NCBI RefSeq assembly: GCF_036507355.1
Contig: NZ_AP027877.1
From: Escherichia coli
Lineage (GTDB): Bacteria; Pseudomonadota; Gammaproteobacteria; Enterobacterales; Enterobacteriaceae
Length of the DNA stretch: 64,000 bases
Direction: 5' to 3' (one strand)
In this document: piece by piece, positions 24,301 through 27,300 of the stretch
How the letters are laid out: every line of letters starts with the position of its first letter
How positions within the stretch are numbered: position 1 is the stretch's first letter
Program-made: the position numbers

Positions 24301-27300
24301 GCATATGCGGGTGATGCGTGATCTGATAAAGCAGCATCGTTCTCCCATGGAGCTGATGACGATGCTGCGGTGATGTGCGCTTAAACGGGCTGCCCCTGAT
24401 GCGACATCCGCGTTGCCAGCGGTAGCCAGCACAGCACGATCAACAATCCCATTAAGGTCATCAACAATCCCAGGCTGCCCTGACCGGTTTGCGGCAACAT
24501 CGCTGAGAGCGACGCCAGCACGCCGGAACCAATGTTTTGCAGACCGCCGACCAGCGCGCCAGCCGTGCCCGCCAGGAAGGGGAACGGCTCCATCGCGCCG
24601 CTGGTCGCCAGCGGAAACAGCATCCCGGCACCGAAAAAGAACAGCGCGGCGGGAACAAGTAGCGTCCAGACATTCATCACGCCAAACCAGTCGGGGATCC
24701 ACATCAGTAAGCCAGCCAGTAGGCAGCAGATAACCGACTGCCACATCAACGTTGAGAAGCGTTTATTGGGACGTCCGGCAAACCATGCCCCAAAAAATGC
24801 CGCCGGAATCGGCAGAATAAACAAAATACTGACCGTCATACTGCTCAGCCCTAATACCGCGCCCATCAGCACGCCGGAGCAGGCTTCAAAGGCGGCAATC
24901 CCGGCCAGACCGCCAATCAGCATCAGCAAATAACAGTTAAAACCGCCGTTACCGAAAAGCGTTTTATAACTGGTAAGCAGGCGCGTGCGCGGTGCATCGA
25001 CCGGACGCGTTTCCGGCATCCAGCGGGCCATACTGAAGGTCACACCAGCACAAAGAACCAACAAAAAGAGATAACAGACGCGCCAGTTCCACATCGTATC
25101 CAGCAGACCGCCGATTAGCGGTGCGAGCAACGGACTAACAAGAATCCCCATGTTTAACAGGCTGTTAGCATGGCGCAACTGTGTCCGTTCATATAAATCA
25201 CGCGGCAAAGTACGCGCCATTACGCCGCCAACGCCGGTGCCCATCCCCTGCATCGCGCTGGCGGCAATCAATACCGTCAAACTGGAGGTCGTGACCGCGA
25301 CCAGCGTTGCCAGCATAAAAATGGACATTCCGACGAGGATCACTGGTCGGCGACCCATGCGGTCGGATATCGGGCCATAAAACAGCTGCGAGACACCGTA
25401 AGTCAGCAGATAAGCGCCCATTACGCTCTGCACCGCCCCTTCACGGACGTTGAGATCGCGCGCCATATCGGCAATAGCTGGAATATAAATGGTTTGCGCC
25501 ATCTGACCGACGGCCACGAGTAATACCAACATCAATAACAAATTGACGTTTCTATGCCTTTTCATTATCACGGATGCTTTTATAAAAATAATTAGAATAA
25601 GTCACTACGCATTCACATAAATGCGGGAGAGGAATCTATCACATTGATGAATGTTAGCCAGATATACGCCAGGAATGGGGAATTGTTTAGCGGCAGAATA
25701 TGTAAACAAAAGCGGCAATAAATGTTGCCGGGAGAGATGGTAGGGCGGATAAGATGCGTCAGCATCGCATCCGACACCAACCCGCACGCTAAATATAAAA
25801 GGGGAGCGGTTACCCGCTCCCCTTTGGTGCGACTTGAATCTGAATTACTTCAGGTATTTCAGAACAGCATCAAGCAGTTGCAGTGCTGCAACAATGAGTT
25901 TGAGGATAAGAATGGCGATATCCACCAGGCTCATACGCGTCTCCTGTGGTTCAGGAGCACTGCCAGCTGACGTACCTTTCCGCTGCCTGTTGCCAGCTGT
26001 TGTGCACGCGGTATCTCAAGGAGAAACGTTGTGCTTGTTGACATAACACAGTGTGCTCACGCGGGGTTAAGGCGCTGACGGCACCACCCGTTTCAGCCAG
26101 GACTTAGTGCGCCGGGTAACGATGCGGCCCCCGCATAACACATTGCGTACAGTGATATTATAGAACTTTACTGTATAAATAAACAGTAATATTTAGACAA
26201 AACGCAAACTGTGATCGATACTCAACTATGTACTAAATACGTCAAAATTCGTGCCGAAATTGCGCGTTCTGCGCGGAACAGGTATACTTTCAGTGTTGAC
26301 ATAATACAGTGTGCTTTGCGGTTACCAGCCGCAGGCGGCTGACGAAACCTCGCTCCGGCGGGGTTTTTTGTTACCTGCAATTCAGTATAAAACGTGATCA
26401 ACCCCTCAATTTTCCCTTGCTGAAAAATTTTCCATTGTCTCCCCTGTAAAGCTGTGCTTGTATAAATATTGTTAAACACAAAACCAACAAGGTCCCCAAT
26501 GACTACTTCCATGTTCAACGCAAAACTACTACCAACTGCGCCATCCGCCGCAGTGGTCGTCGTGCGTGTGGTGGTGGTCGTCGGCAATGCGCCGTAGGGA
26601 CTGGAACAACACACGATTCCAAAACCCCGCCGGCGCAAACCGGGCGGGGTTTTTCGTTTAAGCACCTCCCGGAAAGTCGGCCCAGAAGAAAAGGACTGGA
26701 GCATGGCAAGTTCGGGCACAACATCGACGCGTAAGCGCTTTACCGGCGCAGAATTTATCGTTTATTTCCTGGAACAGCAGGGCATTAAGATTGTGACGGG
26801 TATTCCGGGCGGTTCTATCCTGCCTGTTTACGATGCCTTAAGCCAAAGCACGCAAATCCGCCATATTCTGGCTCGCCATGAACAGGGCGCGGGGTTTATC
26901 GCTCAGGGAATGGCGCGCACTGACGGTAAACCGGCGGTCTGTATGGCCTGTAGCGGGCCGGGAGCGACTAACCTGGTGACCGCCATTGCCGATGCGCGGC
27001 TGGATTCGATCCCGCTGATTTGCATCACCGGTCAGGTTCCCGCCTCGATGATCGGCACCGACGCCTTCCAGGAAGTGGACACCTACGGCATCTCTATCCC
27101 CATCACCAAACACAACTATCTGGTCAGACATATCGAAGAACTCCCGCAGGTCATGAGCGATGCCTTCCACATTGCGCAATCAGGCCGCCCTGGCCCGGTG
27201 TGGATAGACATTCCTAAGGATGTGCAAACGGCAGTTTTTGAGATTGAAGCACAGCCCGCGGTGGCAGAAAAAGACGCCGCACCCGCCTTTAGCGAAGAAA

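What the first reader, a model, noticed from the sequence alone, without database searches (positions are those of the whole stretch)
25797..26370. tisB toxin, LexA box and IstR-1 sRNA with a 21-nt antisense direct repeat
A 29 aa minus-strand ORF encoding TisB is missing from the ORF track because it is below the length cutoff. A canonical LexA box lies upstream at 26171-26186. A 21-nt sequence at 26027-26047, inside the tisAB leader, is repeated with one mismatch at 26295-26315 on the same strand, where a + strand transcript ending in a terminator hairpin would be antisense to the toxin mRNA. This fits the known istR/tisAB arrangement between emrD and ilvB. The single mismatch in the pairing region may be worth comparing with K-12.
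Basis: partly seen in the sequence, partly recalled or inferred. Interest (0 to 1): 0.45.

Follow-up and report, generated by a model that had tools for sequence, protein, structure and literature searches.

The report
Known E. coli tisB/istR-1 toxin-antitoxin locus
This is the well-studied E. coli tisB/istR-1 toxin-antitoxin locus, carrying the commonest E. coli sequence at every regulatory element checked, so it is ordinary.

Summary
Window 25797-26370 is the E. coli tisB/istR-1 type I toxin-antitoxin locus, between emrD and ivbL/ilvB.

- **TisB:** the ORF is intact at 25845-25934 (-), 29 aa, and passes both NCBIfam TisB equivalog models.
- **IstR:** Rfam istR matches 26240-26369 (+) at 144.8 bits (gathering score 45).
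- **LexA box:** CTGTATAAATAAACAG lies at 26171-26186, exactly as stated.
- **Repeat:** the 21-nt repeat exists, but the first copy is at 26037-26057, not 26027-26047. The second copy, 26295-26315, is as stated. As a 22-mer it spans 26036-26057 and 26294-26315.
- **The mismatch:** it is C (26047) against T (26305). In the RNA duplex this is a G·U wobble, so pairing is unbroken. Both copies are identical to K-12.
- **Frequency:** the stretches containing the two copies are exact in about 82% of E. coli genomes that have the locus.
- **Citrobacter:** it has G-C at the wobble position. Three species show a compensatory A-to-G change on both copies.
- **mRNA leader:** the tisAB 5' UTR is base-for-base K-12, so the published mechanism applies (LexA repression, standby-site occlusion by IstR-1, RNase III cleavage).
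- **Differences from K-12:** TisB N2S, which is the published dominant variant, and a few SNPs, one of them rare (26166).

The parts
25792..25825 (-). tisAB intrinsic terminator: 12-bp G+C-rich hairpin at 25798-25825, then a T-rich tail. The transcript 3' end is inferred at about 25792.
   Evidence: Searches show the inverted repeat I1 (100% complementary) and the terminator scan hit. The 359-nt tisAB RNA length comes from PMC2577331. The loop differs from K-12 at 25812, A against T.
25845..25934 (-). tisB CDS, 29 aa plus stop. This is the TisB N2S variant, MSLVD...
   Evidence: The window and K-12 differ at 25930, C against T, which makes codon 2 AGC (Ser) here and AAC (Asn) in K-12. Ser2 is present in every Citrobacter and non-K-12 Escherichia locus recovered. 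The exact 58-mer is found in 3289 of 4358 E. coli genomes. PMC11264685 reports N2S as the dominant variant (85%) and shows it is toxic.
25940..25945 (-). tisB Shine-Dalgarno AGGAGA, 5 nt upstream of the AUG.
   Evidence: Read directly from the sequence. It is the same RBS listed as 100% conserved in PMC11264685. It is predicted to be mostly paired in the +1, +42 and +106 mRNA forms, with unpaired probability 0.16-0.20.
25931..26044 (-). tisA ORF, 37 aa, identical to K-12. It is probably not a real coding gene.
   Evidence: PMC11264685 reports no evidence that it is translated. In 5 Citrobacter loci the ATG is ACG. In the other Citrobacter loci, in Escherichia sp. ESNIH1 and in E. coli E69 (27 aa) the frame or length differs.
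26037..26057 (-). IstR-1 target and ribosome standby site in the tisAB mRNA (AGCACACUGUGUUAUGUCAAC). This is about +94 to +114 of the mRNA and roughly 100 nt upstream of the tisB AUG.
   Evidence: The 22-mer AGCACACTGTGTTATGTCAACA is the sequence given as antisense to istR in PMC2577331. The standby role is described in PMC6690012.
26134..26145 (-). Third, partial copy of the repeat core (CATAACACATTG), near the 5' end of the primary tisAB transcript. It is predicted to pair with the standby region in the +1 form.
   Evidence: (family D1) and the minimum-energy fold of the +1 mRNA. This fits the published inert +1 form. The link is my inference.
26150..26162 (-). tisAB promoter -10 TATAAT (26157-26162 on the + strand) and the inferred transcription start at about 26150.
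   Evidence: The hexamer is read from the sequence. TATAAT is listed as the tisAB -10 in PMC11264685. The start is inferred from two facts: the +106 RNase III end then falls inside the duplex, and the distance to the terminator is 359 nt.
26169..26188 (.). LexA operator TACTGTATAAATAAACAGTA (16-mer core at 26171-26186), overlapping the tisAB -35 and spacer region.
   Evidence: It is identical to K-12. The heterology index of 1.81 for tisB comes from PMC5668327. The CTGT and ACAG arms are invariant across the 18 Escherichia and Citrobacter loci that cover this region, beside the window.
26194..26222 (+). istR-2 promoter: -35 TAGACA (K-12 has TGGACA), 17-nt spacer, -10 GATACT.
   Evidence: The hexamers are named in PMC11264685. 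The SNP at 26195 is A against K-12 G.
26230..26369 (+). IstR-2, 140 nt. It is the longer, SOS-induced form and shares its 3' end with IstR-1.
   Evidence: The coordinates are transferred from the K-12 RefSeq annotation. Rfam istR RF01400 matches 26240-26369 at 144.8 bits.
26260..26288 (+). istR-1 promoter: -35 TTGCGC (26260-26265), 17-nt spacer, -10 TATACT (26283-26288).
   Evidence: Read from the sequence. The hexamers match those listed in PMC11264685. They are conserved in all E. coli and nearly all Citrobacter loci.
26295..26370 (+). IstR-1 antitoxin sRNA, about 75 nt. The K-12 RefSeq annotation maps to 26297-26369.
   Evidence: The fold has a single-stranded 5' tail (nt 1-12), a central stem-loop and a terminator hairpin, at -32 kcal/mol (z = -3.2).
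26295..26315 (+). Antisense segment of IstR-1 (GUUGACAUAAUACAGUGUGCU). It forms 21 contiguous pairs with the target, including one G·U at 26305/26047.
   Evidence: The duplex energy is -36.5 kcal/mol, against -38.4 if the wobble were G-C. The exact 56-mer is present in 3559 of 4357 E. coli genomes.
26344..26370 (+). Intrinsic terminator shared by IstR-1 and IstR-2 (hairpin plus U6).

Best explanation
This is an intact copy of the chromosomal type I toxin-antitoxin module tisB/istR-1 of Escherichia coli.

LexA binds the operator at 26169-26188 and represses the minus-strand tisAB promoter. It also represses the divergent istR-2 promoter. After DNA damage, LexA is cleaved and a roughly 359-nt tisAB mRNA is made (about 26150 to 25792).

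The primary transcript is translationally inert. Removal of its first 41 nt exposes a single-stranded standby site at 26037-26057. 30S subunits load there through protein S1 and then slide to the structured tisB ribosome binding site. The product is the 29-aa membrane-depolarising peptide TisB.

IstR-1 (26295-26370) is made constitutively. Its 5' 21 nt pair with the standby site, which blocks ribosome loading. The duplex is cut by RNase III, leaving the inactive +106 mRNA.

Shown here: all sequence elements are present, intact and at homologous positions. The mRNA leader and both pairing segments are identical to K-12.

Taken from the literature on K-12, not shown here: transcription, LexA control, standby translation, RNase III cleavage, toxicity and the persister phenotype.
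For: - **Toxin:** the peptide passes both curated TisB equivalog models.
- **Antitoxin RNA:** Rfam istR matches the full model at 144.8 bits against a gathering score of 45.
- **Homologous positions:** K-12 RefSeq annotates tisB, IstR-1 and IstR-2 at the corresponding positions.
- **Identity to K-12:** window 25931-26165, which holds the whole tisAB 5' UTR and tisA, has no difference from K-12. Both 22-nt repeat copies and the 20-nt LexA operator are also identical.
- **Repeat:** it is far beyond chance, with 0 of 100 shuffles giving a match.
- **Duplex:** 21 contiguous pairs with one G·U, at -36.5 kcal/mol.
- **IstR-1 fold:** the 5' tail is single-stranded and a terminator follows.
- **tisB RBS:** it is predicted to be sequestered in all mRNA forms, as the standby model requires.
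- **Cleavage site:** with a start at 26150, the published +106 end falls inside the duplex, and the distance to the terminator is the published 359 nt.
- **Conservation within E. coli:** the IstR-1 56-mer is exact in 3559 of 4357 genomes, and the target 60-mer in 3570 of 4348.
- **Conservation across genera:** in 19 Escherichia and Citrobacter loci, 18 of 21 pairs never vary and two vary only between G-C and G·U. One pair shows a compensatory A-U to G-C change in three Citrobacter species.
- **Published mechanism and variant data:** PMC4147584, PMC6690012, PMC5668327, PMC11264685, PMC2577331.
Against: Nothing in the sequence contradicts this reading.

Caveats:
- No expression data exist for this strain.
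- The comparative support for pairing is weak as a statistic: there is only one double-sided change, and 208 of 500 shuffles do as well.
- Two Citrobacter loci (R56, Awk4) carry an uncompensated A·C mismatch at duplex position 7.
- The window has a rare SNP at 26166 (C; only 3 of 4350 genomes match the 58-mer at 99% or better). It lies between the tisAB -10 and the LexA box, and its effect is unknown.
- The transcription starts are inferred from promoter spacing and transferred annotation, not measured.
Confidence: 0.96

Rival explanations
1. The locus is tisB/istR-1 but is regulated differently in this strain. Candidate causes are the rare G-to-C SNP at 26166 (-16 of the tisAB promoter, 3 nt outside the 20-nt LexA operator), the TAGACA istR-2 -35, and the G at 26281 just upstream of the istR-1 -10. 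Any of these could change the toxin-to-antitoxin ratio.
For: The SNPs against K-12 are listed. The 26166 C allele is rare: only 3 of 4350 genomes match the 58-mer at 99% or better. No complete RefSeq genome is identical over the 574 nt; the best is 99.8%.
Against: None of the SNPs touches a promoter hexamer apart from the istR-2 -35, and there both alleles match the consensus at 5 of 6 positions. None touches the LexA 20-mer, the standby site, the RBS or the antisense segment. The 26195, 26231, 26281 and 26338 alleles are shared with O157:H7 TR01 and, at 26338, with other Escherichia species. Position -16 is not a recognised sigma-70 contact; that rests on general knowledge.
Confidence: 0.04
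2. The 21-nt direct repeat is a chance similarity or a leftover of a duplication, and it has no antisense function.
For: Both copies contain a TTGACA hexamer and a near-palindromic ACAC/GTGT core, which could suggest promoter-like or low-complexity similarity. The covariation statistic alone is not significant.
Against: Zero matches appear in 100 shuffles of the window. The repeat is conserved across Escherichia and Citrobacter, while the flanking sequence diverges and suffers indels. Every IstR-side substitution keeps a standard pair: a C-to-T change giving G·U, or a compensated A-to-G change. The identical K-12 sequence has been shown experimentally to mediate repression and RNase III cleavage.
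Confidence: 0.01
3. Beyond encoding TisB, the tisAB RNA acts as a regulatory antisense RNA on uxaA and dinD, as Weel-Sneve et al. 2008 proposed. On this view the toxin-antitoxin reading is incomplete.
For: The 20-nt uxaA-antisense sequence (26106-26125) and the 16-nt dinD-antisense sequence (25865-25880) reported in PMC2577331 are both present. The window is identical to K-12 across those stretches.
Against: This would add to the main explanation, not replace it. The evidence comes from plasmid overexpression, and the authors saw no tisAB-mediated dinD mRNA degradation. I did not examine the uxaA or dinD genes of this strain.
Confidence: 0.1

Closest known systems
tisB/istR-1 (tisAB-istR) type I toxin-antitoxin locus of E. 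coli K-12 MG1655 (b4618, b4616)
   Same: The gene order emrD-ysdE-REP-tisB-tisA-LexA box-istR-ivbL-ilvB is the same. The tisAB 5' UTR, TisA ORF, LexA 20-mer, standby/target 22-mer, IstR-1 antisense 22-mer, promoter -10 hexamers and terminators are identical.
   Different: Seven single-base differences lie in 25797-26370:
- 25812: tisAB terminator loop.
- 25930: TisB N2S.
- 26166: -16 of the tisAB promoter; rare allele.
- 26195: istR-2 -35, TAGACA against TGGACA.
- 26231: +2 of IstR-2.
- 26281: -14 of the istR-1 promoter.
- 26338: a G·U in place of an A-U pair in the IstR-1 central stem.

The N2S form is the majority E. coli allele, and K-12 is the minority.
tisB/istR loci of Citrobacter species (C. 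werkmanii, C. braakii, C. youngae, C. portucalensis and others)
   Same: TisB is 29 aa with Ser2. The loci share the LexA box arms, the IstR terminator, the istR-1 -10 TATACT and a 21-nt antisense core.
   Different: Citrobacter has C where Escherichia IstR-1 has U at duplex position 11, giving a G-C pair in place of G·U. Many Citrobacter loci instead have a G·U at position 20. Three have a compensated A-to-G change at position 7. About 34 nt of the tisA region is deleted, and the tisA ATG or reading frame is not kept.
[quoted passage not shown]
   Same: Each has a small hydrophobic toxin and a divergent, non-overlapping sRNA that pairs within a long 5' UTR far from the RBS. Each needs 5' processing to activate the mRNA. 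dinQ is also LexA-controlled.
   Different: The toxin and sRNA families are different. dinQ does not use ribosome standby. None of these families matched here: the peptide hit only the TisB models and the RNA hit only istR.

Membership tests
tisB/istR-1 type I toxin-antitoxin system | A 29-aa hydrophobic TisB peptide that matches the curated TisB family models. | tested here: met
   NF011340 scores 69.9 bits (cutoff 53) and TIGR04459 scores 61.5 bits (cutoff 38), both covering 1-29 of 29 residues.
tisB/istR-1 type I toxin-antitoxin system | A divergently transcribed, non-overlapping sRNA that matches the istR covariance model. | tested here: met
   Rfam RF01400 matches 26240-26369 (+) at 144.8 bits against a gathering score of 45, E = 4.4e-31, full model 1-130.
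tisB/istR-1 type I toxin-antitoxin system | About 21 nt of complementarity between the IstR-1 5' end and the tisAB 5' UTR, roughly 100 nt upstream of the tisB RBS. | tested here: met
   26295-26315 pairs with 26037-26057: 21 contiguous pairs including one G·U. The target lies at about +94 to +114 and the tisB AUG at about +217. The 22-mer is identical to the one published in PMC2577331.
tisB/istR-1 type I toxin-antitoxin system | A LexA operator in the tisAB promoter, giving SOS control. | tested here: met
   TACTGTATAAATAAACAGTA lies at 26169-26188, 6 nt upstream of the -10 TATAAT, and is identical to K-12. The published heterology index is 1.81. LexA binding itself was not tested.
tisB/istR-1 type I toxin-antitoxin system | A chromosomal position between emrD and ivbL-ilvB. 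| tested here: met
tisB/istR-1 type I toxin-antitoxin system | Both RNAs are expressed, and the duplex is cut by RNase III to give the +106 mRNA. | not testable with these tools
   No transcriptome data are available. Promoters and terminators are intact. The sequence is identical to the K-12 RNAs used in the published experiments.
tisB/istR-1 type I toxin-antitoxin system | TisB is toxic, and IstR-1 neutralises it. | not testable with these tools
   Not tested here. PMC11264685 reports that the N2S variant carried by this window is toxic on overproduction.

The most novel reading that the evidence does not exclude
The central G·U wobble is fixed in Escherichia, while Citrobacter has G-C at that position. 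It lies at IstR-1 nt 11, about +104 of the mRNA, 2 nt from the inferred +106 RNase III cleavage end. It could be a tuned feature that sets the cleavage position or rate, or the reversibility of IstR-1 silencing. Separately, this strain's rare -16 promoter SNP (26166) could shift basal tisAB leakage and so the frequency of persister cells.
Probability: 0.06. Interest if true: 0.25.

Novelty: already known. Interest (0 to 1): 0.07.

Why it matters
[quoted passage not shown] This copy carries the majority E. coli alleles at the elements whose frequency was checked.

The useful results are three:
- An annotation check: the small toxin gene and the two sRNAs should be annotated in this genome.
- A corrected coordinate for the target site.
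- A clear answer that the 'mismatch' is the normal Escherichia G·U wobble and not a strain-specific lesion.

Tried and rejected
I replaced it with a degenerate back-translated DNA pattern scanned over genome contigs. That returned 17 enterobacterial tisB loci and 5 chance hits in unrelated taxa (L004, L005, L008, L017, L022), which I discarded after translation.
- **The Pfam scan** was not run because TisB is below the 30-aa minimum. NCBIfam was used instead.
- **Formal covariation counting** on the IstR-1/target duplex gave no statistical support on its own: one double-sided change, and 208 of 500 shuffles do as well. The helix barely varies, so I do not present covariation as proof.
- **Two weak Rfam hits** were rejected: naRNA4 (22 bits against a gathering score of 59.5), which is just the REP element, and Pseudomonas P6 (20.6 bits against 50), which is just the ivbL attenuator/terminator hairpin.
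- **The idea that the mismatch is strain-specific** was rejected. It is identical in K-12 and in most E. coli genomes.
- **tisA as a real gene** is considered unlikely from the comparative data.
- **My first tisA script** picked the IstR copy in some Citrobacter loci. This was corrected.

Full report
**Observation**

The region was read on both strands, and ORFs of at least 20 aa were listed.

- **TisB ORF.** A 29-aa minus-strand ORF, MSLVDIAILILKLIVAALQLLDAVLKYLK, lies at 25845-25934. It is preceded by AGGAGA (25945-25940).
- **Upstream ORF.** A 37-aa ORF lies at 25931-26044.
- **LexA box.** It is the only CTGT-N8-ACAG in the window. The bare pattern is expected 0.46 times by chance, so context carries the weight.
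- **Repeat.** The direct repeat is real and far beyond chance. TGTTGACATAACACAGTGTGCT (26036-26057) and TGTTGACATAATACAGTGTGCT (26294-26315) share 21 of 22 bases, with no match in 100 shuffles.
- **Coordinate error.** The 21-nt core is at 26037-26057.
- **Terminators.** A hairpin plus T-run closes the + strand RNA at 26344-26370. A 12-bp hairpin at 25798-25825 closes the minus-strand transcript.

**Identity**

- The peptide passes both curated TisB equivalog models, at 69.9 and 61.5 bits against cutoffs of 53 and 38.
- Rfam istR (RF01400) matches 26240-26369 on the + strand over the whole model, at 144.8 bits against a gathering score of 45.
- The 574 nt match about 4350 of 5426 complete E. 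coli chromosomes at 95-99.8% identity, always under a tisB annotation.
- The K-12 RefSeq record annotates tisB, IstR-1 (73 nt) and IstR-2 (140 nt) at the homologous positions, between emrD/ysdE and ivbL/ilvB.
- Transferred through the alignment, these map to 26297-26369 for IstR-1 and 26230-26369 for IstR-2.
- The istR-1 promoter (TTGCGC, 17 nt, TATACT at 26260-26288) places the start at about 26295.

The window differs from K-12 at only seven positions within 25797-26370: 25812, 25930, 26166, 26195, 26231, 26281 and 26338. The following are base-for-base identical:

- the whole tisAB 5' UTR and tisA (25931-26165);
- the LexA 20-mer;
- both repeat copies.

The 'single mismatch' is therefore the normal state of the locus. 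It is C at 26047 against T at 26305. In RNA terms, IstR-1 U11 faces a G in the mRNA, which is a G·U wobble. The duplex has 21 contiguous pairs, at -36.5 kcal/mol, against -38.4 if the pair were G-C.

The exact 56-mer around the IstR-1 copy occurs in 3559 of 4357 E. coli genomes. The exact 60-mer around the target occurs in 3570 of 4348. The sampled variants differ only just outside the 21-nt core, at 26036, 26294 and 26333.

**Relatives in other species**

A degenerate tisB pattern scanned over one genome per species recovered 17 Escherichia and Citrobacter loci. These were aligned.

- Across 19 loci, 18 of the 21 duplex pairs never vary.
- Position 11 is G·U in Escherichia and G-C in Citrobacter.
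- Position 20 is G·U in several Citrobacter loci.
- Position 7 carries a compensatory A-U to G-C change in three Citrobacter species.
- Two other Citrobacter loci have an uncompensated A·C at position 7.

This fits selection for pairing. With one double-sided change it is not significant by itself: 208 of 500 shuffles do as well. The strong evidence is conservation combined with the published experiments on the identical K-12 sequence.

**Mechanism**

Every step below is inferred from the identity of the sequence with K-12; none was measured in this strain.

1. The literature describes LexA repression of tisAB, with heterology index 1.81 (PMC5668327).
2. The primary +1 mRNA is inert. Processing to +42 exposes a single-stranded standby site about 100 nt upstream of the sequestered tisB RBS.
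3. 30S subunits load at the standby site, dependent on protein S1.
4. IstR-1 pairs across the standby site, and RNase III cleavage yields the inactive +106 mRNA (PMC4147584; PMC6690012).

Placing the start at about 26150, which is 7 nt downstream of the TATAAT at 26162-26157, gives three consistent results:

- the target falls at +94 to +114;
- the +106 end falls inside the duplex;
- the transcript length to the terminator is 359 nt, the published size.

Folding predicts three further things:

- the tisB SD/AUG is mostly paired in all three mRNA forms;
- the 5' end of the +1 form pairs with the standby region;
- the first 12 nt of IstR-1 are single-stranded.

**Differences from K-12**

- **TisB N2S (25930).** This is the majority allele. 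It occurs in 3289 of 4358 genomes and in every other Escherichia and Citrobacter locus. PMC11264685 reports it at 85% and shows it is toxic.
- **26166 C.** This is the only rare allele: only 3 of 4350 genomes match its 58-mer at 99% or better. It sits at -16 of the tisAB promoter, outside the -10 hexamer and the LexA 20-mer.
- **The other SNPs.** They are shared with O157:H7 TR01, the best 574-nt match at 99.8%, and with other Escherichia.

**Verdict**

This is the already known tisB/istR-1 locus in its common E. coli form, and the mismatch is the standard G·U wobble. Interest is low.

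Noticed in passing
window 26058-26315, compared with L030 (E. coli GMF054, NZ_CM183924.1): Strain GMF054 carries a 258-bp deletion whose ends coincide exactly with the two repeat copies. This is the outcome expected from recombination or replication slippage between the 21/22-nt direct repeats. It removes both promoters and the LexA box, and fuses the IstR 3' part to the tisAB leader.
   Followed up: partly
window about 25735-26421, compared with L025 (E. coli GN02323): About 20% of complete E. 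coli genomes (1068 of 5426) keep emrD, ysdE, ivbL and ilvB but lack the whole REP-tisB-istR block. In its place is roughly 150 nt of unrelated sequence. Absence in 15% of genomes is already reported in PMC11264685.
   Followed up: partly
window 26166: C is present where K-12, O157 and nearly all other E. coli have G. Only 3 of 4350 genomes match the 58-mer around it at 99% or better. The position is -16 of the tisAB promoter, between the -10 hexamer and the LexA operator. Its effect is unknown.
   Followed up: partly
window 25931-26044 (-), and loci L003-L024: The tisA ORF (37 aa) is identical to K-12 but is not conserved outside Escherichia. Its ATG is ACG in 5 Citrobacter loci, in three of them as part of the compensatory change in the IstR target. 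Elsewhere the frame or length differs, partly through a roughly 34-nt deletion. This supports tisA being non-coding.
   Followed up: yes
window 26134-26145: A third, partial copy of the repeat core (CATAACACATTG, 11 of 12) sits near the 5' end of the primary tisAB transcript. Because the core is nearly palindromic (ACAC/GTGT), it is predicted to pair with the standby site in the +1 mRNA. This fits the published inert +1 form.
   Followed up: partly
window 25647-25721 (+): The 24-aa small ORF ysdE (MNVSQIYARNGELFSGRICKQKRQ) is intact and K-12-like. In O157:H7 TR01 this stretch is much more diverged. The window therefore looks mosaic here: K-12-like around ysdE and TR01-like in tisB/istR.
   Followed up: no
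window about 25735-25790: A REP (repetitive extragenic palindrome) element lies between ysdE and the tisAB terminator. It gives a sub-threshold Rfam naRNA4 hit at 25744-25776 (22 bits against a gathering score of 59.5). Some E. coli genomes carry about 139 extra bases within the 2.4-kb query stretch (position not determined), and others have an ISKox3 insertion.
   Followed up: no
window 26499-26597 (+): The ilvB leader peptide IvbL is intact (NF007579, 80.1 bits). It has Phe at residue 6 where K-12 has Leu, from the SNP at 26514. O157 TR01 shares this allele.
   Followed up: no
window 26106-26125 and 25865-25880 (-): The 20-nt uxaA-antisense sequence and the 16-nt dinD-antisense sequence of the tisAB RNA, described by Weel-Sneve et al. 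2008 (PMC2577331), are both present unchanged.
   Followed up: no
window 24900-27300, compared with NZ_OZ282453.1 24901-27301: The best 2.4-kb match (99.3%) has record coordinates offset by exactly 1 from the window coordinates. The window is therefore probably the first 64 kb of an E. coli chromosome assembly that starts at the same origin point.
   Followed up: no
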